15,366 bases of DNA. Source: Escherichia coli (GTDB lineage: Bacteria; Pseudomonadota; Gammaproteobacteria; Enterobacterales; Enterobacteriaceae). The stretch lies in assembly GCF_003334315.1 (NCBI RefSeq), contig NZ_QOWR01000075.1. One strand, written 5' to 3'. The notes under the pieces are model-generated. The model did no database searches. It was given only the letters and a program-made list of their open reading frames with translations, and was not told the origin of the DNA. How positions within the stretch are numbered: the first letter of the stretch is position 1; every line of letters starts with the position of its first letter. Below, piece by piece: positions 106 to 5,351 of this stretch. The position numbers were made by a program, and so were the translations under genes.

Positions 106-459
106 TTACGTGGGTAGGATCAGATCAGGAACAGCTTTAACAGTAGCTTCTTGTTGTGTCTTGGCTTCTTGTCTAGCTTCTTCTTGTGGAATATCTACCA
201 CTTGATAGACATTAGAACTTCCTGGTCGTGCATCTTTTATAATTAACCCCATTTCGAGCAATTTCTTAACCCTTTCCTCTGCTGCTCTTGGTGTTATGCC
301 AAAAACATCGCCTATCTTAGCGTAAGAGGGAAATGCACGATCAAACCCTTTCAGATAGCAGTAAAGATTTTTAGCACTATCTGTAAATTTATGCCCGTTT
401 ACTTGGCTTATTTTTAGAATCCACATAGGAACTTTTACAAATTGTTCTTCATTAATCAT
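106..459 (-). CDS. small winged-helix/HTH DNA-binding protein, 117 aa from ATG 459 (the ORF track shows a GTG-extended 125 aa form reaching 483)
   Basis: Open frame 106..483. The ATG at 457-459 is preceded by AAGGAG (467-472) 7 nt upstream, while the GTG at 483 has no SD. The pattern VPMWILK..AKNLYCYLKGF..FPSYAKIGDVFGITPRAAEERVKKLLEMGLI resembles the HTH_36 / initiator-type winged helix of phage and plasmid proteins (from memory, not searched). The tail is acidic and Q-rich. Confidence 0.6.
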   Translation of the reverse strand: MINEEQFVKVPMWILKISQVNGHKFTDSAKNLYCYLKGFDRAFPSYAKIGDVFGITPRAAEERVKKLLEMGLIIKDARPGSSNVYQVVDIPQEEARQEAKTQQEATVKAVPDLILPT

Positions 460-512
460 TAAAAATCTCCTTGATGTAATCACGCTCTATGGCGCTACTA
501 TGGTGATAAAAA

Positions 513-702: not shown

Positions 703-891
703 TTACTCTGTTTCAGATTCTTTTTCATTTTTTCTTAATTCATCAATAATCTTGAGTGCTTCATTGAAGCAAGCTGCTCGCTCTGGATAACCTCGACTCC
801 TTGCCATATTACGATTCATTACTATTTGGTGGCGTGTAAGCTCACCTTTTTTAAATGCCGCGACAACGTGTTCCGATGTGAACCATTTCAT
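703..891 (-). CDS. 62 aa hypothetical protein, first gene of the three-gene operon
   Basis: ATG at 889-891 with AAGGAG at 898-903 (6 nt spacer); TAA at 703-705. I recognise no family. The C-terminus is helical and charged. Confidence 0.55.
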   Translation of the reverse strand: MKWFTSEHVVAAFKKGELTRHQIVMNRNMARSRGYPERAACFNEALKIIDELRKNEKESETE

Positions 892-1001
892 AAAAAACTC
901 CTTATTCAGTTAAAAGAAAAACACCTTGCAAGCCTGACGGCTTCAAAGTGCATTGATTTTGATTATTTAGAGAAGAATGTTTTTCTGTCCCTCTAATACC
1001 T

Positions 1002-1030
1002 ATTATTACATATAAAGAAACATTTGTCAA
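1002..1030 (-). promoter_or_regulatory. sigma70-like promoter for the 891->106 operon
   Basis: On the minus strand: TTGACA (1030..1025), 17 nt spacer, AATAAT (1007..1002). This predicts a leader of about 100 nt before the ATG at 891. Confidence 0.45.
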
Positions 1031-1122
1031 TACCTTTTCACAAAAAATCTGATCTTTTTCATGTACTTACATTTTTTCTTAGCAATTCGTGCTCTTCTGT
1101 GTAGTGCTATTCTTCCTTATTG

Positions 1123-1151
1123 TCTAAAACGCTCTAAAACGCGTTCTAACG
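1123..1151 (+). repeat. tandem 10-mer TCTAAAACGC x2 plus a degenerate third copy
   Basis: Perfect copies at 1123-1132 and 1133-1142, with a partial copy TCTAACG at 1145-1151. The related AAAACGCTCT recurs at 1287-1296. Confidence 0.6.
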
Positions 1152-1567
1152 AGGTTTTGATAAAAGCAATACATTCCCTTATGTAATGGCTGTTTAGCTC
1201 GCCAGAGGCTTATTTAAGGGGCTTATTTTGTATTTGTTAGGTATATGAAAAGGTGATGGTAGATATAAGATAGAGAGTCACTTTATAAAACGCTCTGTAA
1301 AGCCCTGTAGTGAGTTTATATATGTAGGCAATGCGTTTCCATTCCCTACCCTGCTTAATGCTGTTAGAGAAGCATTTAGACCCCTTATTTTTAATTACCT
1401 AAAGTATCCTCTATACATTCCTGTTATGAAACACCTCTGAATCCTTCATAAAACACATTATGACGCAAAGAACACTTTTCTAAGGTGATTCCCTTCCTGA
1501 ATGCTGTTTCTTGCGTCAAAGAGCTACACAGAGCTTATAAAGCTATTATTAATAATAAAGTAGACAA

Positions 1568-1620
1568 AGTAAGTAAGATAAGTAAGTAAGATAACTAAGA
1601 TAGATAAGATTAATAAGATC
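1568..1620 (+). repeat. TAAG/TAAGAT microsatellite-like tract
   Basis: Perfect 13 bp tandem AGTAAGTAAGATA at 1568-1580 and 1581-1593. TAAGAT hexamers start at 1574, 1587, 1596, 1605 and 1614 (spacing 13, 9, 9, 9 bp). Confidence 0.75.
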
Positions 1621-1629
1621 AGAATTCTC

Positions 1630-1661
1630 TTTCGGTGTCGCCTCTGGCTTTTCCACCGAAA
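1630..1661. other. 8 bp stem hairpin / dyad (TTTCGGTG ... CACCGAAA, 16 nt loop)
   Basis: Arms at 1630-1637 and 1654-1661 are perfectly complementary. There is no U-tract on either strand, so it is not called a terminator. Confidence 0.4.
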
Positions 1662-1663
1662 AC

Positions 1664-1828
1664 AATTACACAACTACAGAGAATAACGAGAGTTATTAAA
1701 TGTAGAAAGTGGAATTGTATTGAGGCTTAGTGAAATTACACGAGGAAAGCAGAGTGTAATTGAGCTTTAGCCGCTCTCTCTTCGAGTAATTACACAACTA
1801 CAGAGAATAACAGAGTTATTAAATGTAG
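1664..1828 (+). repeat. pair of 42/41 bp direct repeats (1664-1705 and 1788-1828) bracketing an AATTACAC/GTGTAATT inverted pair
   Basis: Both copies read AATTACACAACTACAGAGAATAAC(G)AGAGTTATTAAATGTAG and are identical except for a 1 nt indel. Each contains the dyad AATAAC-N3/4-GTTATT. Between them, AATTACAC (1734-1741) and GTGTAATT (1754-1761) form a perfect 8 bp inverted repeat. Confidence 0.9.
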
Positions 1829-1889
1829 GAGGGTAATTAAGAGTTAGAGAGAGTTAACACATAAGCAATCAGTATGATTGGTTAGGTGA

Positions 1890-2070
1890 TTACTCTTCTG
1901 CGCACAGCGCAATAGTATTTCTTCGTGGGCGTTACCGCCAACGATAGTTACACGAAGAAAGTAACGCTTTGCTTTCGGTGTGAGCGGAACGGGCCAGCCA
2001 CGAAGCCCAAAGGTAGCGGAGTAAGGCTGCTTGCCAGAGAGTGAAGCTAACGCCGGAAGGCAAAAGATCA
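1890..2070. ncRNA. candidate structured RNA (or gene relic): a GC-richer, hairpin-dense patch inside very AT-rich DNA
   Basis: Perfect 10 bp helix TTTCTTCGTG (1918-1927) / CACGAAGAAA (1951-1960), enclosing GGCG-TTAC-CGCC (1928-1939). An alternative pairing is GCGTTAC (1929-1935) with GTAACGC (1961-1967). Other hairpins: TGCGC-ACA-GCGCA (1899-1911), GGGC/GCCC (1991-1994/2005-2008) and TTGCC/GGCAA (2031-2035/2059-2063). The overlapping 75 aa minus-strand ORF has no SD. Strand is undetermined. Confidence 0.3.
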
Positions 2071-2128
2071 TATAAATAAATATATAATATTATAATTTAA
2101 TAAGTAATTTAATAAATGATCTAATAGG

Positions 2129-2262
2129 TAACAGAATTCTGTGGGGGTGTCTAACAGTTTTCTGTGGGGGTGTCTAACAGAATTCTGTTAGGGTGGGGTA
2201 ACAGAATTTTGTTAGGGTAAAAATCTCTTTAAAAGTTAAGATTAACAGAATTCTGTGGGGGG
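2129..2262 (+). repeat. array of 5 dyad sites TAACAG-N4-CTGT(TA), each followed by a G-run
   Basis: Copies at 2129-2147, 2152-2170, 2175-2198, 2199-2218 and 2243-2262 (start spacing 23, 23, 24, 44 bp). The core ACAGAATTCTGT is a perfect 12 bp palindrome, and the copy at 2175 is a perfect 16 bp palindrome, TAACAGAATTCTGTTA. Confidence 0.9.
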
Positions 2263-2325
2263 TAGCTCACAGTGACCTACCCCCTAGTTCACTATGACCT
2301 ACCCCCCTAGGTCACAGTGACCTAT
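2263..2325 (+). repeat. iteron triplet A (22, 23, 18 bp units: TAGCTCACAGTGACCTACCCCC / TAGTTCACTATGACCTACCCCCC / TAGGTCACAGTGACCTAT)
   Basis: Head-to-tail direct repeats at 2263-2284, 2285-2307 and 2308-2325. The preceding G-run and the first unit form the inverted repeat GGGGGTAG ... CTACCCCC. Confidence 0.9.
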
Positions 2326-2383
2326 ATAGTATAAAGAATATTATTTATATTATTTAATTATAGTATTTAATTATAGTATTGGT
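2326..2383. repeat. extremely AT-rich spacer with a perfect 13 bp tandem TATTTAATTATAG x2 (2351-2363, 2364-2376); DUE-like
   Basis: Read directly from the sequence. It is flanked by the iteron and dyad arrays. A second AT-rich tract (2072-2128) carries the 11-mer TAATTTAATAA twice (2093-2103, 2105-2115). Confidence 0.7.
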
Positions 2384-2483
2384 GGAACTCATTTCCTAGG
2401 TAGGTAGGAACTAATTTCCTAAGTAGGTAGGAAACCACTTCCTAGGTTACTTCCTAAATAGATCGGAAATCATTTCCTAGGTG
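2384..2483 (+). repeat. array of 4 dyad sites GGAA-N5-TTCC followed by TAGGT/TAAGT
   Basis: Sites at 2384-2396, 2407-2419, 2430-2442 and 2465-2477 (start spacing 23, 23, 35 bp). There is a lone TTCCTA half-site at 2451-2456. Confidence 0.9.
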
Positions 2484-2501
2484 TTATTTATACTTATCGG
2501 G

Positions 2502-2556
2502 TATCAGTTTTGATAGGGGTATCAGACTTGATAGGGGTAACAGAATTCTGTGGGGG
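2502..2556 (+). repeat. array of 3 dyad-plus-GGGG units (TATCAGTTTTGATAGGGG, TATCAGACTTGATAGGGG, TAACAGAATTCTGTGGGGG)
   Basis: Units at 2502-2519, 2520-2537 and 2538-2556, with an 18 bp period. The TATCA..TGATA arms differ from the TAACAG..CTGTTA arms by symmetric (compensatory) changes in both half-sites. Confidence 0.9.
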
Positions 2557-2619
2557 TAGTTCACTATGACCTACCCCTAGTTCACTGTGAGCTACCCCTA
2601 GTTCACTGTGAGCTACCGT
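2557..2619 (+). repeat. iteron triplet B (3 x 21 bp TAGTTCAC(T/A)(G/A)TGA(G/C)CTACCCC)
   Basis: Units at 2557-2577, 2578-2598 and 2599-2619. They have the same orientation and family as 2263-2325. The module [TAACAGAATTCTGT + G-run + 3 iterons] is therefore duplicated (2243-2325 and 2538-2619). Confidence 0.9.
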
Positions 2620-2711
2620 TACATCCAATCATCTGTCGATGTAACATATCGTTACTACCAACTTTCTTACAAAGAGCATTTCAGATAGCTGAATGTAACC
2701 TCTCGTTACAT
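2618..2711. repeat. four GTTACAT heptamers arranged as two dyads
   Basis: GTTACATC (2618-2625) / GATGTAAC (2638-2645) with a 12 bp spacer. ATGTAAC (2693-2699) / GTTACAT (2705-2711) with a 5 bp spacer. There is an extra CGTTAC at 2650-2655. Confidence 0.8.
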
Positions 2712-2732
2712 CCATTTGTCACATAGCACTCT

Positions 2733-3208
2733 GTGTAATGCCTTTCTATGTGTGTGCCATAATCCCCCTATATTCCCTGTGTAAATCATAGAATAATGCT
2801 CTCTATTCCCTGTGTAATTCCCTACTAAAAATCAATGAAAAAGTAGCTTAAAGTTGCAATTCTTACTTTCTTCACTTTTACATCACTTTCGCAAAGCCTT
2901 GTGTAATGCGGCTTACAGAGCACCATCAGAAATTGTTGGCTAAAAATTATTCTGCTTGTTTCTGAACGAGTTTTCTCGTTTGTGCAAATTTTAAAATTTA
3001 TTTTGTTTTTACAGCCTTATTTCGTGTAATGCGTGGCATAGCAAGCCCTTTTCTTGTGTTGTCAAGACATTTGGCAACGTTCAAACATCTGTTTAGAAAT
3101 GCCAAATTGTTGATCTAACAAATAAACCTGTATAAACAGAACACCATTTAATCTATTCCCCTGTGTATCCATTAGGCATACCAAATGAATACAGCTAAAT
3201 CGTGTAAT
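2733..3208 (+). repeat. field of GTGTAAT-containing motifs, including the perfect 14-mer TATTCCCTGTGTAA x2
   Basis: GTGTAATGC at 2733, 2901 and 3024; GTGTAAT at 3202. TATTCCCTGTGTAA at 2771-2784 and 2804-2817 (33 bp apart). Variant TATTCCCCTGTGTA at 3154-3167. Related ATTCCCTTATGTAAT near 1173-1187. CCCTGTGTA on the minus strand at 4604-4612. Confidence 0.8.
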
Positions 3209-3281
3209 ATTCCGTACCCATAAGGCTTGAAACAGACCAAATGAATACGGTATACTCATTTGCATTTAAGTAGTGCCAAAT
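3069..3281. promoter_or_regulatory. res-like recombinase-binding region (CCAAAT-containing half-sites) upstream of the serine recombinase gene
   Basis: CCAAATGAATAC at 3181-3192 and 3237-3248. An imperfect inverted partner GTATACTCATTTG lies at 3250-3262. TGCCAAAT is at 3100-3107 and 3274-3281, with its complement ATTTGGCA at 3069-3076. The arrangement resembles the multi-subsite res regions next to tnpR-type genes (established layout; the assignment here is inference). Confidence 0.4.
3227..3256 (+). promoter_or_regulatory. sigma70-like promoter of the recombinase gene, overlapped by the repeated half-sites
   Basis: TTGAAA (3227-3232), 18 nt spacer, TATACT (3251-3256). The CCAAATGAATAC repeat lies within the spacer, which suggests autoregulation. 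Confidence 0.45.
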
Positions 3282-3301
3282 CGACACATTAAGAGGATTT
3301 T

Positions 3302-3841
3302 ATGAGCAATATCGGTTATAAGCGTGTGAGCACTGTAGATCAGAACACTGATCGCCAGCTTGCAGGAGTAACTCTCGATAAAGTCTTTGAAGATAAGCTG
3401 TCTGGTAAAGACACTAACCGCCCAGGCTTACAAGCGTGTTTAGCCTATCTGAGAGAAGGCGACACCTTACACGTGCACTCTCTCGACCGTTTAGGACGTA
3501 ACACCTTAGACATCCTTGCTTTAGTTGAACAACTTAATAATCGAGGTGTAATTGTTCGATTTCACAAAGAAGGAATCATTGCAGACATTACAAGCGCGAT
3601 GGGAAAGATGATGCTTACGATGTTGTCGGCAGTTGCAACGTGTGAACGTGAACTGATGTTAGAACGTAAACGAGAAGCGCAAGCCGTCAATCCTACAAAA
3701 CGTGGTAATGGAAAAGCAGTGGATCGAGAAGGTATAAAGAAAGCCCTTTCTGATGGCCTGTCAGTGCGTAAAACCGCCGAGAGCTTTAATGTTGCTCCTT
3801 CAACGGTGCAACGTATCAAGAAGGAAGAAGAGGAGGCGTAA
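3302..3841 (+). CDS. small serine recombinase (resolvase/invertase family), 179 aa
   Basis: N-terminal GYKRVSTVDQNTDRQ carries the catalytic-serine motif (YxRVSTxxQ). DRLGRN and the SAVATCERE helix are present. C-terminal HTH: GLSVRKTAESFNVAPSTVQRIKK. RBS AAGAGGA at 3291-3297. Confidence 0.9.
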   Translation: MSNIGYKRVSTVDQNTDRQLAGVTLDKVFEDKLSGKDTNRPGLQACLAYLREGDTLHVHSLDRLGRNTLDILALVEQLNNRGVIVRFHKEGIIADITSAMGKMMLTMLSAVATCERELMLERKREAQAVNPTKRGNGKAVDREGIKKALSDGLSVRKTAESFNVAPSTVQRIKKEEEEA

Positions 3842-3849: not shown

Positions 3850-4058
3850 TGATATTTGAGAATTGTCGCTGCGTGGACCTGACGGCGCTGATCTTCTCGT
3901 TAAGCGATGATCACGTATGCGCCGATTTCAGAGAAAAAGACAGTAACTGAACTCACTATGAAGGCTAAACGTATCTTTACACTTGATGAAAACGTTCAAA
4001 AAACAACCTAACCCCAAAATTCAACAAATTGCAACACATTGTTTTTAAAAGAAAATTA

Positions 4059-4182: not shown

Positions 4183-4341
4183 ATGCATTTACTTTCAAAA
4201 CATCTTCACACTATTCACTTTCTCGTTATTGATGTATTCGTTGTGGCTATTAGTTACCGCATTTGCATCGCTTCCAGTGAAGAGATGGACGCTGTTGCAA
4301 TTATTGCTCAAGCAATGGCGATATTAACTAAACGACTTTAA
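4183..4341 (+). CDS. 52 aa hydrophobic mini-protein, MHLLSKHLHTIHFLVIDVFVVAISYRICIASSEEMDAVAIIAQAMAILTKRL
   Basis: Translated by hand (below the track cut-off). GGAGG at 4173-4177, 5 nt before the ATG at 4183; TAA at 4339-4341. It has a promoter upstream and a hairpin downstream. The hydrophobic core suggests a membrane peptide. Confidence 0.4.
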   Translation: MHLLSKHLHTIHFLVIDVFVVAISYRICIASSEEMDAVAIIAQAMAILTKRL

Positions 4342-4354
4342 TAATTTCACTATC

Positions 4355-4398
4355 AGGCGCATAAACACATCTTTGATCGCTGGATGTGTTATGCGCCT
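4355..4398. terminator. long hairpin between the convergent mini-ORFs (16 bp stem with one bulge, 11 nt loop)
   Basis: AGGCGCATAAACACATC (4355-4371) pairs with GATGTGTTATGCGCCT (4383-4398). There is no clear U-tract on either strand, so the terminator role is inferred only from its position between the two stop codons (4341 and 4408). Confidence 0.45.
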
Positions 4399-4407
4399 AC
4401 TGGTGAT

Positions 4408-4560
4408 TCAATCCTTAAGCCATTTCAACTCACTAAGGAGTTTTCTTTCTTCGTTCTCTCGTTGCTTTCGCTCTAGCCAGGCTTTTCCCTCTGGCGTAGA
4501 CAGGAACTTACGAGCGTGAATCTTGCGGTTATTACGTTTTATAGCTGCAATGTTTTTCAT
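4408..4560 (-). CDS. 50 aa basic, coiled-coil-like mini-protein, MKNIAAIKRNNRKIHARKFLSTPEGKAWLERKQRENEERKLLSELKWLKD
   Basis: Translated by hand. ATG at 4558-4560, AGAGG at 4568-4572 (7 nt spacer), TGA at 4408-4410. A CCCTGTGTA motif lies about 45 nt upstream, on the same strand. Confidence 0.4.
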   Translation of the reverse strand: MKNIAAIKRNNRKIHARKFLSTPEGKAWLERKQRENEERKLLSELKWLKD

Positions 4561-4744
4561 CGTGTTGCCTCTGTATTCATATGAAAATTAACAAGTTACA
4601 TACTACACAGGGAGACTACGCATAAAACACAATACAAGTAAAGATACATTTTCAAGACAATAGGAGCCATAAAGCGCCTTTGATGGTTATACCAAAAAAT
4701 AAGCGCCGTAGGCGTATCCACTAAAAAGGGCTTTTTCACAAAAG

Positions 4745-5110
4745 CTATGAAGTCTTAGCAGTTCTTCTCTTATCAGGCACCCGTTGTACTCCGGTGGACG
4801 AAACCGTGCTAGAGCTTGATTCTTTCCCGATCAAGTTAGGTTTTGAAGAGGTGGGCTTTAATCCACTATTGCACTTAAAACTCTTCCCATCATTTAGCCT
4901 GTTTATCCTCTGCAACGTCTCACGACGTGTAGCATCATTGGACACCGCGCCAGGTGTGGAACATCTTGCTAAGAGTTTTGGTAGAAGGTTTAGAGACGGT
5001 GGCACGTCTTCCAGCTTCAAAGGAACTTGTTACGAGGTTGAGCCTGGGAACTACTCGCCCATACGTGTTACACTACCAAAGCCCATAACAACGTATAGGC
5101 GTTTGTAAGT
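4745..5110. ncRNA. candidate structured RNA or decayed gene adjacent to the thrW 3' end
   Basis: GC is close to the core genome, unlike its neighbours. Both strands carry long overlapping open frames (4745..5020 minus, 4794..5108 plus) with non-ATG starts and no SD. Many local hairpins: 4813-4837, GAAGAG/CTCTTC 4845-4886 enclosing GTGG/CCAC, ACGTC-TCAC-GACGT 4915-4928, ACACC/GGTGT 4942-4957, AGACG/CGTCT 4994-5009. On the minus strand, a short GC stem plus T6 at about 4695-4725 could terminate a leftward transcript. Confidence 0.3.
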
Positions 5111-5166
5111 GATAACAGAAGATACAATTTCTTAGAGAAGTTAAGCTAAGTTATTGATTTTCTTGA

Positions 5167-5242
5167 TGGTGCCGATAATAGGAGTCGAACCTACGACCTT
5201 CGCATTACGAATGCGCTGCTCTACCAACTGAGCTATATCGGC
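5167..5242 (-). tRNA. thrW: tRNA-Thr (anticodon CGU)
   Basis: The reverse complement reads GCCGATATAGCTCAGTTGGTAGAGCAGCGCATTCGTAATGCGAAGGTCGTAGGTTCGACTCCTATTATCGGCACCA. It is 76 nt with an encoded CCA, a CGT anticodon in the loop and a GGTTCGA T-arm. Confidence 0.97.
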
Positions 5243-5287
5243 CCTGAAAGGACATGTTCACGAACGTGAATCACGGTGGACAAGGTT

Positions 5288-5351
5288 AAAACTAACCGGG
5301 CGATGCGTCAATGGCCTTGTGAATCAAATGGCTACTTTTGCATCACCCGGT
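5288..5351 (-). terminator. long-loop hairpin plus T-run downstream of proA, overlapping the likely thrW promoter region
   Basis: ACCGGGCGATGC (5295-5306) pairs with GCATCACCCGGT (5340-5351), with one G-U. On the minus strand it is followed by TAGTTTTAA. Confidence 0.35.

What the first reader, a model, noticed from the sequence alone, without database searches (positions are those of the whole stretch)
4695..5166. Core-like GC, doubly open-reading, hairpin-rich segment next to the tRNA: ncRNA or relic of the integration module
The segment 4745-5110 differs from its AT-rich surroundings. Long frames are open on both strands with non-ATG starts and no SD, which is typical of non-coding sequence with balanced composition. 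It contains at least six clean local hairpins.

A short GC stem followed by T6 on the minus strand (about 4695-4725) could end a transcript running leftward away from thrW. An IHF-consensus match (AATCAATAACTTA on the minus strand, 5147-5159) lies 8 bp from the tRNA 3' end, as expected for an att arm.

Possible readings are a structured RNA of about 400 nt belonging to the island, or a degraded gene.
Basis: partly seen in the sequence, partly recalled or inferred. Interest (0 to 1): 0.55.

Follow-up and report, generated by a model that had tools for sequence, protein, structure and literature searches.

The report
Plasmid-type replication RNA in a thrW island
The unannotated stretch beside the threonine tRNA gene encodes no protein: it is a conserved, intricately folded ~450-nt RNA element, absent from Rfam, whose relatives are the core of tiny plasmids that replicate without a replication protein, so it is most likely an RNA-based replication origin carried by an integrated phage-satellite-like island.

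Summary
Window 4657-~5105 (+ strand) is a real, conserved structured element. It is not a gene relic.

- Single-sequence folding is unremarkable (z -1.0 and -0.6), and Rfam finds nothing.
- Homologues from many Enterobacterales show strong compensatory change. In 9 close relatives, 95% of cells pair (34-44% when partners are slid), and 27 of 69 pairs change on both sides. In 40 sequences found by a covariance model built without the window, 31 of 36 pairs change on both sides.
- No ORF is conserved and there is no Pfam hit. The island's integrase sits at the far end, 12 kb away.

Chromosomal copies always abut a tRNA attachment core (Thr, Leu or Gly). The same RNA core occurs on small plasmids with no recognisable Rep gene:
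- a 1,698-bp Klebsiella plasmid;
- qnrD Col3M plasmids;
- pB1000, where published copy-number mutations fall inside the homologue.

On the enterobacterial plasmid copies a ColE1-type primosome-assembly-like motif follows the RNA. Canonical ColE1 RNAII/RNAI is not detectably related. Island copies lack the antisense-target region and the primosome-assembly-like (pas-like) motif.

Best reading: an RNA-based, initiator-independent origin or pre-primer module. Replication from the island copy is inferred, not shown.

The minus-strand terminator and the IHF site are weak, chance-level features.

The parts
4657..5106 (+). Whole conserved structured element (about 450 nt): 5' module, core domain, 3' domain, terminal stem and short U-run.
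   Evidence: CM R1, built from 18 other islands, hits 4657-4960 (+) at 63.2 bits, E = 6e-19. The 3' domain is defined by the RNAalifold and pair counts on A3 and mapped to window coordinates.
4657..4687 (+). 5' module ACAATAGGAGCCATAAAGCGCC followed by the 5' arm of long-range helix P0 (TGATGGT, 4681-4687).
   Evidence: The module is conserved in islands and plasmids. All 7 P0 pairs show changes on both sides, with 94.9% of cells paired in 40 sequences (helix 1).
4886..4892 (+). 3' arm of P0 (CCCATCA), immediately upstream of GCCTGTTTATCC.
   Evidence: One search lists at least 10 distinct covarying arm pairs, for example TGGTGGT/ACCACCA, GTGTTGGG/CCCAACAT, TGTGGTA/TACCACA and GAGTGATA/TATCACTT (the pB1000 type).
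4753..4768 (+). 5' arms of long-range helices LR1 (TCTTAGC) and LR2 (TTCT). They pair with 4958-4974 (GGAA ... GCTAAGA) and close the core domain. They cross P0, so this is either a pseudoknot or alternative folds.
   Evidence: helices 4 and 5: 7 of 11 pairs change on both sides, and 94-96% of cells pair.
4770..4837 (+). Core motifs and helices: TTATCAGG (4770-4777; P1 arm 4774-4778), P3 (4792-4795/4803-4806), TAGAGC (4810-4815), and hairpin P4 (4813-4822/4829-4837).
   Evidence: The columns are invariant in 31 diverse sequences. P4 has 5 of 6 pairs with both-side changes and 95.4% of cells paired (helix 5). P3 is helix 4.
4845..4885 (+). Variable inserted hairpin (GAAGAGGTGGG ... CCAC ... CTCTTC). 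It is present only in the window-type and L004-type copies.
   Evidence: Alignments: the insert is about 47 nt and is absent from L002, L003 and the plasmid types.
4897..4957 (+). Invariant GCCTGTTTATCC (P1 3' arm 4897-4901), hairpin P6 (4911-4919/4924-4934) and hairpin P7 (4942-4945/4954-4957).
   Evidence: helices 9-11, helices 6-9. All pairs of the inner P6 stem and of P7 change on both sides in the 40-sequence set.
4977..5106 (+). 3' domain: closing helix LR3 (4977-4983/5074-5080), P9 (4995-4998/5005-5008), P10 (5033-5036/5054-5057), and terminal stem CGCCCATACG/CGTATAGGCG (5056-5065/5092-5101) followed by TTTGT.
   Evidence: helices 12-14, show covariation. Terminal-stem variants (GCCGC/GCGGC, GCCAC/GTGGC) were read from the alignments.
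4700..4716 (+). Small hairpin GCGCC-GTA-GGCGT.
   Evidence: On the minus strand it is a 4-bp stem that the scan does not call. It is retained as a 2-pair element in the family model (helix 2, 75.8% of cells paired). The downstream T-run is seen only in the window type.
5107..5166 (.). AT-rich att arm between the element and the tRNA. It contains the IHF-consensus match at 5147-5159 (-).
   Evidence: One search gives the match, which is chance-level. A TTGATT at the same distance from the core is kept in other thrW-type copies (alignments) but not in the Leu or Gly types.
5167..5242 (-). thrW tRNA-Thr(CGT). Its 3' 19 nt (5167-5185) are the att core duplicated at the far end of the island.
   Evidence: The direct repeat TGGTGCCGATAATAGGAGT bounds the orthologous island in L196 (1883-1906 and 15772-15795).

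Best explanation
**What it is.** Window 4657-~5105 encodes, most likely on the + strand, a ~450-nt highly structured RNA. It is the island-borne form of an RNA module that forms the replicon core of small plasmids with no recognisable Rep gene: pB1000/pLS88-type 'ColE1-like' plasmids of Pasteurellaceae, Col3M qnrD plasmids, and untyped 1.7-5 kb enterobacterial plasmids.

**Proposed mechanism.**
- Host RNA polymerase makes the RNA.
- Its fold has a core domain closed by long-range helices, a 3' domain, and a terminal GC stem followed by UUUGU.
- By analogy with ColE1 RNA II (established knowledge of that system), this fold positions the 3' region on the template so that a host DNA polymerase can start leading-strand synthesis just downstream.
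- After excision of the ~12-13 kb island, that start point faces the att core and the integrase gene.

**How the island version differs.** It lacks the antisense-target stem-loop region and the primosome-assembly-like (pas-like) motif of the plasmid versions.

**Shown here:** conservation, structure, homology to the plasmid module, and position next to att.

**Inferred, not shown:** transcription, strand, priming, and any contribution to island replication.
For: **Structure**
- RNAalifold on 9 close relatives gives 69 pairs in 14 helices.
- Of those cells, 95.0% pair, against 34-44% when partners are slid. 27 pairs change on both sides, against 4-10 in the slid controls. No shuffle of 500 reaches the observed values.
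- A covariance model built only from 18 Leu/Gly-type islands finds the window at E = 6e-19.
- On 40 distinct hits, 91.6% of cells pair (31-43% slid), 31 of 36 pairs change on both sides, and the covariation score is 0.32 against 0.02-0.06.

**Non-coding**
- No frame is conserved and there is no Pfam hit.

**Homology to plasmid replicons**
- An island-only HMM hits small plasmids at E = 1e-19 to 1e-14, and pB1000 at 4e-8.
- The CM hits qnrD plasmid L193 at 1.5e-15, L119 at 5e-17, L120 at 6e-9, the 1,698-bp plasmid L191 at 4e-6, and pB1000 at 1.6e-7.
- L191 has one annotated 63-aa ORF and L192 (2,148 bp) one 153-aa ORF. The element plus the pas-like motif is what these plasmids share.

**Replicon function of the plasmid homologues**
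- The pLS88/pB1000-type origin is treated as a protein-free ColE1-like ori (PMC8683028, S1 Text).
- Copy-number and host-range mutations in pB1000 (T3819A, T3874A, C3890A, T3894C; PMC10294622) fall in the 3' domain and terminal hairpin of the homologue (sequence).
- The ColE1-type pas-like motif CGCCGCAG..GCGAGGARGCG lies just 3' of the RNA, on the same strand, in 15 plasmid-type loci. In ColE1 it lies about 115 nt past the origin, which I place at about position 1198 by adding the textbook 555-nt RNAII length to the RNAI position.

**Independence from the integrase**
- The element is kept next to Thr, Leu and Gly att cores.

**Precedent**
- RNA-based origins are known in prophages (PMC7157519).
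Against: - The island already carries an O-like initiator and iteron arrays (window 2129-2617). Relatives carry other replication-type genes, such as a DEAD-box helicase in L002. An RNA origin is therefore not obviously needed.
- Island copies lack the pas-like motif. They also lack the ~100-350 nt region that holds the putative RNAI-type stem-loops in plasmids.
- In some island lineages the terminal stem is not followed by a U-run (GGCAACTG, GGCAATC).
- The island 3' domain is not detectably homologous in sequence to the plasmid 3' domain. HMM hits on most plasmids end at model position about 245 of 540.
- No sigma-70-like promoter was found upstream on the + strand.
- The strand is not settled. 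Alifold energies are similar or slightly better on the minus strand. G-U exceeds A-C by 36:12 and 46:34, but only on alignments fitted to the + strand.
- Canonical ColE1 is not hit by the HMM (E > 10) or the CM (E > 1).
- No expression or replication data exist for the island copy.
Confidence: 0.55

Rival explanations
1. It is a cis-acting leader or riboregulator coupled to recombination. In the excised circle the RNA, the att core and the integrase gene are co-oriented and adjacent, so the folded RNA and its terminal stem would gate read-through into int. Integrase expression would then depend on the excised state.
For: - In L196 the RNA end, about 60 nt of arm, the 19-nt core and 138 nt precede the int ATG on the same strand once the ends are joined.
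- L005 has the same layout.
- The island terminal stems have weak or absent U-runs, which is compatible with regulated termination.
- The element always abuts att.
Against: - The same RNA core is present on plasmids with no integrase or att site. These include a 1,698-bp plasmid with one 63-aa ORF.
- The element is conserved across islands with different integrases and att sites.
- No antiterminator-like alternative pairing at the 3' end was tested.
Confidence: 0.15
2. It is a trans-acting non-coding RNA of the satellite, for example an immunity or helper-interference RNA like the processed CI RNA of satellite P4, or an RNA scaffold. The plasmid copies would then be a secondary co-option.
For: - The RNA is large with many conserved single-stranded motifs (TTATCAGG, GCAGAGC, GCCUGUUUAUCC) that could be binding sites.
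- The island looks like a phage satellite: capsid, tape-measure-like and Dit-like genes, and an integrase.
- The island has its own initiator and iterons.
Against: - There is no sequence or structure match to any Rfam family, including phage and satellite RNAs.
- Tiny plasmids keep the element as almost their only conserved content.
- Published copy-number mutations map inside the pB1000 homologue.
Confidence: 0.12
3. The conserved pairing acts at the DNA level. The region would be a single-strand initiation signal or single-strand origin (or a packaging signal) that folds when the strand is displaced, and not a transcript.
For: - Compensatory changes and G-T wobbles are also compatible with folded ssDNA.
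- Neither strand is favoured by alifold energy.
- The plasmid copies sit next to a known ssDNA-type signal, the pas-like motif.
Against: - The architecture spans 450 nt with long-range helices over about 200 nt and crossing helices. This is far larger than known ssi or sso signals (my own knowledge).
- The plasmid copies end in a canonical hairpin-plus-U-run, which is a transcription signal.
- No rolling-circle Rep was recognised in the island or plasmid proteins that were scanned or annotated.
Confidence: 0.1
4. It is a decayed protein gene (integrase or other), or merely the integrase arm-binding region of att with no RNA or structural role.
For: - Open frames of 91 and 104 codons exist in the window.
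- An IHF-consensus match lies in the adjacent arm.
Against: - The frames are not conserved even in 72-95% identical relatives.
- There is no Pfam hit at E <= 1.
- Indels of 47 nt and other non-triplet lengths occur.
- Covariation preserves base pairs, not codons.
- The integrase is intact elsewhere.
- The element is shared by islands that use different att sites, and by plasmids.
Confidence: 0.02

Closest known systems
Protein-free 'ColE1-like' origins of Pasteurellaceae plasmids (pB1000, pLS88, pIG1; Ares-Arroyo et al. 2021, PMC8683028)
   Same: - Homology to the window's family is detectable: HMM E = 4e-8 and 1.6e-5, CM E = 1.6e-7.
- It shares the 5' module, long-range helix P0 (GAGTGATA/TATCACTT), TTATCAGG, the AGAGC hairpin and GCCTGTTTATTC.
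- Mutations inside it change the copy number (PMC10294622).
   Different: - pB1000 has about 350 nt between the 5' module and the core, holding the putative two-stem-loop RNAI region.
- It has a strong terminal hairpin with a U-run.
- The island copy has neither.
- The published RNAII start for pB1000 is a prediction. It lies downstream of the 5' module that, in my analysis, pairs with the core.
Col3M qnrD plasmids (about 2.7 kb) and untyped 1.7-5 kb enterobacterial plasmids (NZ_CP125184, NZ_CP058865, L120-type mob plasmids)
   Same: - These are the closest plasmid relatives: CM E = 1.5e-15 to 4e-6, HMM E = 1e-19 to 1e-14.
- They have the same core helices, with covariation.
- No Rep gene is annotated.
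   Different: - They carry an extra 100-170 nt stem-loop region.
- They have a canonical 3' hairpin (GCCCCGTGA..TCACGGGGC) followed by TTTTGTAC.
- They have a ColE1-type pas-like motif 30-75 nt downstream.
- They were not included among the ColE1-like plasmids of PMC8683028.
Canonical ColE1/pMB1 RNA II pre-primer with antisense RNA I (Rfam RF00106)
   Same: - Functional layout: a ~500-nt untranslated RNA, then the origin, then a pas-like motif on the same strand, with no plasmid initiator.
- The motif order TATCCGG..GGAGAGC..GCCTGGTA in ColE1 (L194 1042-1110) resembles TTATCAGG..GGCAGAGC..GCCTGTTTAT. This is suggestive only.
   Different: - Neither the HMM nor the CM finds a hit.
- There is no RNAI hit in the window or in 8 plasmid loci.
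- Dependence on RNase H and Pol I is untested.
RNA-based origins of extrachromosomal mycobacteriophage prophages (Wetzel et al. 2020, PMC7157519)
   Same: A phage-derived element uses a non-coding RNA instead of a Rep protein for replication initiation.
   Different: - The host phylum is unrelated.
- No sequence comparison was made here.
- Those prophages are extrachromosomal, whereas this element is integrated at a tRNA.

Membership tests
Rep-less small-plasmid RNA replicon family (pB1000 / Col3M / cryptic enterobacterial plasmids) | Shared sequence motifs and profile-level homology of the core (5' module, TTATCAGG, GNAGAGC, GCCTGTTTATYC). | tested here: met
   The island-only HMM hits plasmids at E = 1e-19 to 4e-8. 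The CM built from islands hits plasmids and the window. Columns are invariant in 31 sequences.
Rep-less small-plasmid RNA replicon family (pB1000 / Col3M / cryptic enterobacterial plasmids) | Conserved secondary structure with compensatory changes (P0, P3, P4, P6, P7). | tested here: met
   31 of 36 pairs change on both sides, and 91.6% of cells pair against 31-43% slid, in 40 sequences that include plasmids and the window. P0 variants are listed.
Rep-less small-plasmid RNA replicon family (pB1000 / Col3M / cryptic enterobacterial plasmids) | Stem-loop region between the 5' module and the core (the putative antisense RNAI target). | tested here: not met
   Island copies have 60-90 nt there, against 145-400 nt in plasmids. 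The CAGAC..CAATC loop hairpin is absent.
Rep-less small-plasmid RNA replicon family (pB1000 / Col3M / cryptic enterobacterial plasmids) | GC-rich terminal hairpin followed by TTTTGTAC. | tested here: inconclusive
   The window has a 10-nt-arm stem with one mismatch and a 26-nt loop, then TTTGT. L003-type islands have GGCTTTTGTAC. Some lineages have no U-run.
Rep-less small-plasmid RNA replicon family (pB1000 / Col3M / cryptic enterobacterial plasmids) | ColE1-type primosome-assembly-like (pas-like) motif just downstream. | tested here: not met
   The pattern CGCCGCAG N5-35 GCGAGGARGCG is found in 15 plasmid-type loci and in ColE1, but in no island locus or the window region.
Rep-less small-plasmid RNA replicon family (pB1000 / Col3M / cryptic enterobacterial plasmids) | Supports autonomous replication without an element-encoded initiator. 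| not testable with these tools
   This needs a cloning and replication assay. For the plasmids it is inferred from their gene content and from PMC10294622 and PMC8683028.
Canonical ColE1 replicon (RNA II / RNA I) | Antisense RNA I recognisable by Rfam RF00106. | tested here: not met
   No RNAI hit at E <= 10 in window 4300-5300, nor at E <= 1 in 8 plasmid loci. ColE1 itself scores 73.8 bits.
Canonical ColE1 replicon (RNA II / RNA I) | Sequence or structure homology of the pre-primer to ColE1 RNA II. | tested here: not met
   ColE1 (L194) is not hit by the island HMM at E <= 10 or by CM R1 at E <= 1. Only a loose similarity in motif order is seen.
Canonical ColE1 replicon (RNA II / RNA I) | Priming through an R-loop processed by RNase H and extended by DNA polymerase I. 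| not testable with these tools
   This is a biochemical property. It needs polA and rnhA host tests.
Integrase arm region of attP (IHF and arm-type sites) | Sequence co-varies with integrase and att specificity. | tested here: not met
   The folded element is conserved next to Thr, Leu and Gly att cores. Only the last ~60 nt (5107-5166) differ by att type.
Integrase arm region of attP (IHF and arm-type sites) | IHF consensus near the core. | tested here: inconclusive
   There is a match at 5147-5159 (-), but 3 matches in the window against 0.91 expected, and 14 of 200 shuffles reach 3. Its position is kept in thrW-type relatives.
Decayed protein-coding gene | A reading frame or protein-family signal shared by relatives. 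| tested here: not met
   The longest frames differ in strand and phase among 29 relatives. There are no Pfam hits.
Any curated RNA family (Rfam 15) | Score at or near a family's gathering threshold. | tested here: not met
   Only the tRNA passes the threshold. The best other hits are chance-level.

The most novel reading that the evidence does not exclude
The element defines an uncatalogued class of large (~450 nt) structured RNA. It has crossing long-range helices and is a self-contained, initiator-free 'replicon cassette' distinct from ColE1 RNA II. It moves between tiny AMR or cryptic plasmids (qnrD, blaROB-1) and tRNA-integrating phage-satellite-like islands. In the islands it survives in a stripped form, without antisense control or a pas-like motif, that fires only after excision. 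That would give the satellite helper-independent, Rep-independent amplification.
Probability: 0.3. Interest if true: 0.75.

Novelty: new variant of a known kind. Interest (0 to 1): 0.62.

Why it matters
If the reading is right, about 9% of complete E. coli genomes (510 of 5,426) carry an unannotated RNA-type replication module at thrW, inside a satellite-like island. The same module underlies small resistance plasmids (qnrD, blaROB-1) that replicon-typing schemes leave untyped or place in separate groups.

What this offers:
- A covariance model of the RNA would give a direct marker for typing Rep-less plasmids.
- It links plasmid and satellite evolution.
- It provides a compact, experimentally tractable RNA, with a clear covariation-supported fold, for studying how an RNA alone can specify a DNA replication start outside the classical ColE1 paradigm.

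It also shows that a region dismissed by single-sequence folding statistics can be a bona fide structured RNA.

Tried and rejected
- **Rfam.** I ran gathering and permissive scans on the window, and permissive scans on 8 plasmid loci. Only the tRNA and an unrelated repBA pseudoknot came up.
- **Single-sequence folding.** The z-scores are not significant.
- **blastn of the window segment against PLSDB.** There were only two self-like hits. The plasmid link appeared only through a motif scan of genome contigs and was then confirmed by HMM and CM.
- **Column-pair scan on a global MAFFT alignment of 29 representatives.** It was too noisy, because variable hairpins were misaligned and both wobble types were allowed. 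Global alifold on that alignment was also uninformative. I replaced these with subfamily alignments and a CM.
- **Unconstrained search for the P0 partner in 620 nt upstream.** The observed mean helix length (7.5) equalled the shuffled mean (7.4). I replaced it with a position-anchored listing. Its overall statistics are diluted by false pattern hits, so only the listed true members are used.
- **Strand choice by alifold energy.** This was inconclusive.
- **Pattern scans.** Several hits were false positives from unrelated taxa (for example L014, L016, L055, L067-L070, and many MAG loci) and were discarded.
- **Literature.** The VBR1 replicon paper (PMC12753305) is unrelated. Searches for satellites or islands with ColE1-like origins found nothing specific. 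A search on qnrD small-plasmid replication origins found nothing on qnrD but turned up the mycobacteriophage RNA-origin precedent, and a search on covariation-supported plasmid RNAs found nothing specific.
- **Canonical ColE1 membership.** I tested this and it failed.
- **P2/P3 pseudoknot.** I saw a possible H-type pseudoknot between TTATCAGG and AGAGC by eye but did not count it.
Full report
**Setting**

The window is the E. coli proBA-thrW region. tRNA-Thr(CGT) lies at 5167-5242 on the minus strand. proA, proB, phoE, crl, frsA, gpt and pepD lie to its right. Everything left of 5167 belongs to an island.

The finding's segment is present, always unannotated, in 510 of 5,426 complete E. coli genomes.

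Orthologous intact islands (L005 at tRNA-Gly, L196 at thrW) are about 12-13 kb long. From the far end to the tRNA they carry:
- a full-length tyrosine integrase;
- a Dit-like tail protein;
- a tape-measure-like protein;
- a lambda-E-like major capsid protein;
- small genes;
- an O-like/HTH_36 initiator;
- a 2-kb ORF-poor stretch with iteron arrays;
- a small serine recombinase;
- the segment in question, which abuts the tRNA.

In L196 the island is bounded by a 19-nt direct repeat of the tRNA 3' end.

**Checking the observation**

The descriptive points hold:
- GC is moderately higher than in the neighbouring island DNA.
- Open frames lie on both strands with TTG and GTG starts.
- The IHF-consensus string is present.

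On the single sequence the structural claim is not above chance. The MFE z-scores are -1.0 and -0.6. The IHF pattern is also at chance level: 3 matches in the window against 0.9 expected. The minus-strand 'terminator' is a 4-bp stem that the scan does not call, and its T-run is not conserved in relatives. Rfam finds nothing but the tRNA.

**Relatives**

Distant blastn in E. coli found diverged copies next to thrW, a tRNA-Leu and a tRNA-Gly, in islands of the same architecture but with different integrases. The first four-way alignment already showed stems whose two arms changed together.

Motif scans of IMG/VR and of one genome per GTDB species brought in about 120 true family members. They come from Escherichia, Raoultella, Pantoea, Kluyvera, Citrobacter, Salmonella arizonae, Serratia, Brenneria, Enterobacter and other genera. 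Chromosomal copies always end 50-100 nt from a complete or partial tRNA 3' end. Partial ends occur where a second element sits in tandem, as in L006.

**Structure**

RNAalifold on the window plus eight relatives of its subtype predicts two multi-helix domains closed by long-range helices. Pair counting gives:

| Measure | Observed | Partners slid |
|---|---|---|
| Cells paired | 95.0% | 34-44% |
| Pairs changed on both sides | 27 of 69 | 4-10 |
| Shuffles reaching observed | 0 of 500 | not applicable |

A covariance model was built only from 18 islands of the other subtype. It finds window 4657-4960 at 63 bits (E = 6e-19), together with all the other subtypes. On the 40 distinct hits:
- 91.6% of cells pair, against 31-43% when slid;
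- 31 of 36 pairs change on both sides;
- the covariation score is 0.32, against 0.02-0.06.

This alignment is fitted to the model, which favours the structure, but the margin is large.

A long-range helix, P0, joins the 5' module to the CCAYC motif just upstream of the invariant GCCUGUUUAUCC. It exists in at least ten covarying versions, and it holds whether the two arms are 60 or 400 nt apart. P0 crosses helices LR1, LR2 and P1, so the RNA is either pseudoknotted or switches between folds.

No reading frame is conserved and there is no Pfam signal. The degraded-gene reading is therefore rejected.

Window coordinates of all helices are given. The element spans 4657 to about 5105, so it begins about 40 nt left of the finding's start.

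**Strand**

The + strand, running towards thrW, is favoured for three reasons:
- The plasmid relatives end in a canonical GC hairpin plus U-run on that strand.
- The order RNA, then pas-like motif, is the order seen in ColE1.
- G-U pairs outnumber A-C (36:12 and 46:34), although both alignments were derived on the + strand.

Alifold energies do not separate the strands. I put the strand call at about 0.7.

**The link to plasmids**

The genome-contig scan unexpectedly returned small, high-coverage contigs and known plasmids. The island-only HMM and the island-only CM both hit them significantly:
- Col3M qnrD plasmids of 2.7 kb (L193);
- a Xenorhabdus 5.3-kb plasmid (L119);
- mob plasmids (L120);
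- a 2,148-bp and a 1,698-bp Klebsiella plasmid, each with one small annotated ORF (L192, L191);
- pB1000 of Haemophilus (L195).

The element plus a downstream motif is essentially all these plasmids share. That downstream motif, CGCCGCAG..GCGAGGARGCG, is also found in ColE1, about 115 nt past its origin on the RNAII strand (I place the origin by adding the textbook 555-nt RNAII length to the RNAI position). From my own knowledge of pBR322, it corresponds to the primosome assembly site.

The pB1000/pLS88-type origin is described in the literature as a protein-free ColE1-like origin (PMC8683028). In an evolution experiment, four mutations raised pB1000 copy number about ten-fold and shifted its host range (PMC10294622). 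I mapped all four onto the 3' domain and terminal hairpin of the homologous RNA in L195. All four reference bases match, so the numbering is the same.

Canonical ColE1 is not detected by either profile, and no RNAI is present. Col3M plasmids are not among the ColE1-like plasmids of PMC8683028.

**How it most likely works**

The best-supported reading is that the segment is the island version of an RNA-based, initiator-independent replicon module:
- The folded RNA ends at the terminal stem near 5101.
- DNA synthesis would start just downstream.
- In the excised circle, that synthesis would proceed through the att core towards int.

The following are shown here: the element's reality, its fold, its homology to the plasmid module, and its constant position.

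The following are inferred: transcription, strand, priming, and use by the island.

Several points cut against the inference:
- The island has its own O-like initiator and iterons.
- Island copies lack the pas-like motif and the stem-loop region that would be the antisense target in plasmids.
- Some island lineages lack a U-run after the terminal stem.
- No promoter was found.

I therefore give the replication reading 0.55. The rivals are a recombination-coupled leader for int (0.15), a trans-acting satellite RNA (0.12), a DNA-level single-strand signal (0.10), and a gene or att relic (0.02).

**Comparison and novelty**

The element is a member of the same RNA family as the pB1000-type and Col3M-type plasmid cores. 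It is a stripped variant of that family, and it fails the membership tests for the canonical ColE1 RNAII/RNAI family.

RNA-based origins in prophages have a precedent in mycobacteriophages (PMC7157519).

I found no description of this RNA fold, of its presence in tRNA-integrated islands, or of the unification of these plasmid groups. It may nonetheless sit unnamed in large catalogues of candidate phage RNAs (PMC10690425), which I could not check.

I rate it a new variant of a known kind, with interest 0.62.

Noticed in passing
window 2129-2617 (within the ORF-poor stretch 891-3302): Five arrays of 18-23-bp direct repeats (for example TAGTTCACTGTGAGCTACCCC x2.9 and TAACAGAATTCTGTGGGGGTGTC x3.6). 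They look like the iterons of a protein-dependent origin and lie next to an O-like/HTH_36 initiator gene (window 106-483, minus strand, partial).
   Followed up: partly
window 3302-3841 (+): A 179-aa small serine recombinase (Resolvase N-terminal domain plus HTH_7) sits inside the island, 0.8 kb upstream of the RNA element. Its role (multimer resolution or inversion) is unknown.
   Followed up: partly
L005 8009-20367; L196 1883-15795: The island family is an unusual ~12-13 kb tRNA-integrating element. It has an integrase, a lambda-E-like capsid protein, a tape-measure-like protein and a Dit-like tail protein, but no recognisable portal or terminase. It may be an undescribed type of phage satellite.
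   Followed up: partly
L191 (NZ_CP125184.1, 1,698 bp); L192 (NZ_CP058865.1, 2,148 bp): Klebsiella plasmids that consist of little more than the RNA element, a pas-like motif and one small ORF. They are candidate minimal natural replicons for this RNA family.
   Followed up: partly
L073, L075, L101, L110, L132, L084 (small contigs): A near-identical qnrD-type ~2.7-2.8 kb plasmid sequence appears as small contigs in assemblies labelled Acinetobacter, Massilia, Fulvimonas, Shewanella and a Paceibacterota MAG. This is either cross-contamination or an unexpectedly wide spread.
   Followed up: no
L120 1427-1455 (+); L193 1955-1983 (+); L195 ~3893-3925 (-): The plasmid-type 3' domain contains a conserved promoter-like site with an extended -10 (GTGACA-17-TAGGAT/TAAGAT). 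In pB1000 the equivalent TTGCAT-17-TATGAT overlaps the published copy-up mutations T3894C and C3890A, which hints at a short internal transcript.
   Followed up: no
L148 4357-4417 (-) region (Brenneria sp.): In this copy the 5' module and the 5' arm of helix P0 are replaced by a (CAGTTAG)n heptamer array.
   Followed up: no
L091 3280-3509 (-) and 4439-4644 (-) (Candidatus Pantoea varia): Two copies of the element lie about 1.1 kb apart. This suggests tandem islands or a duplicated module.
   Followed up: no
L194 1042-1110 (ColE1): ColE1 RNAII carries TATCCGG..GGAGAGC..GCCTGGTA in the same order as the family's TTATCAGG..GGCAGAGC..GCCTGTTTAT. Profile searches do not detect homology, but very distant common ancestry is possible.
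   Followed up: partly
NZ_CP126938.1 44527-45053 (166-kb E. coli plasmid record): The window segment occurs at 100% identity on a record annotated as a conjugative plasmid. This may be a captured chromosomal segment or an assembly problem.
   Followed up: no
L006 2535-4909: In several IMG/VR contigs the element is followed by only 17-45 nt of the tRNA 3' end and then by tail-fibre genes of another prophage. thrW evidently hosts tandem integrations.
   Followed up: partly
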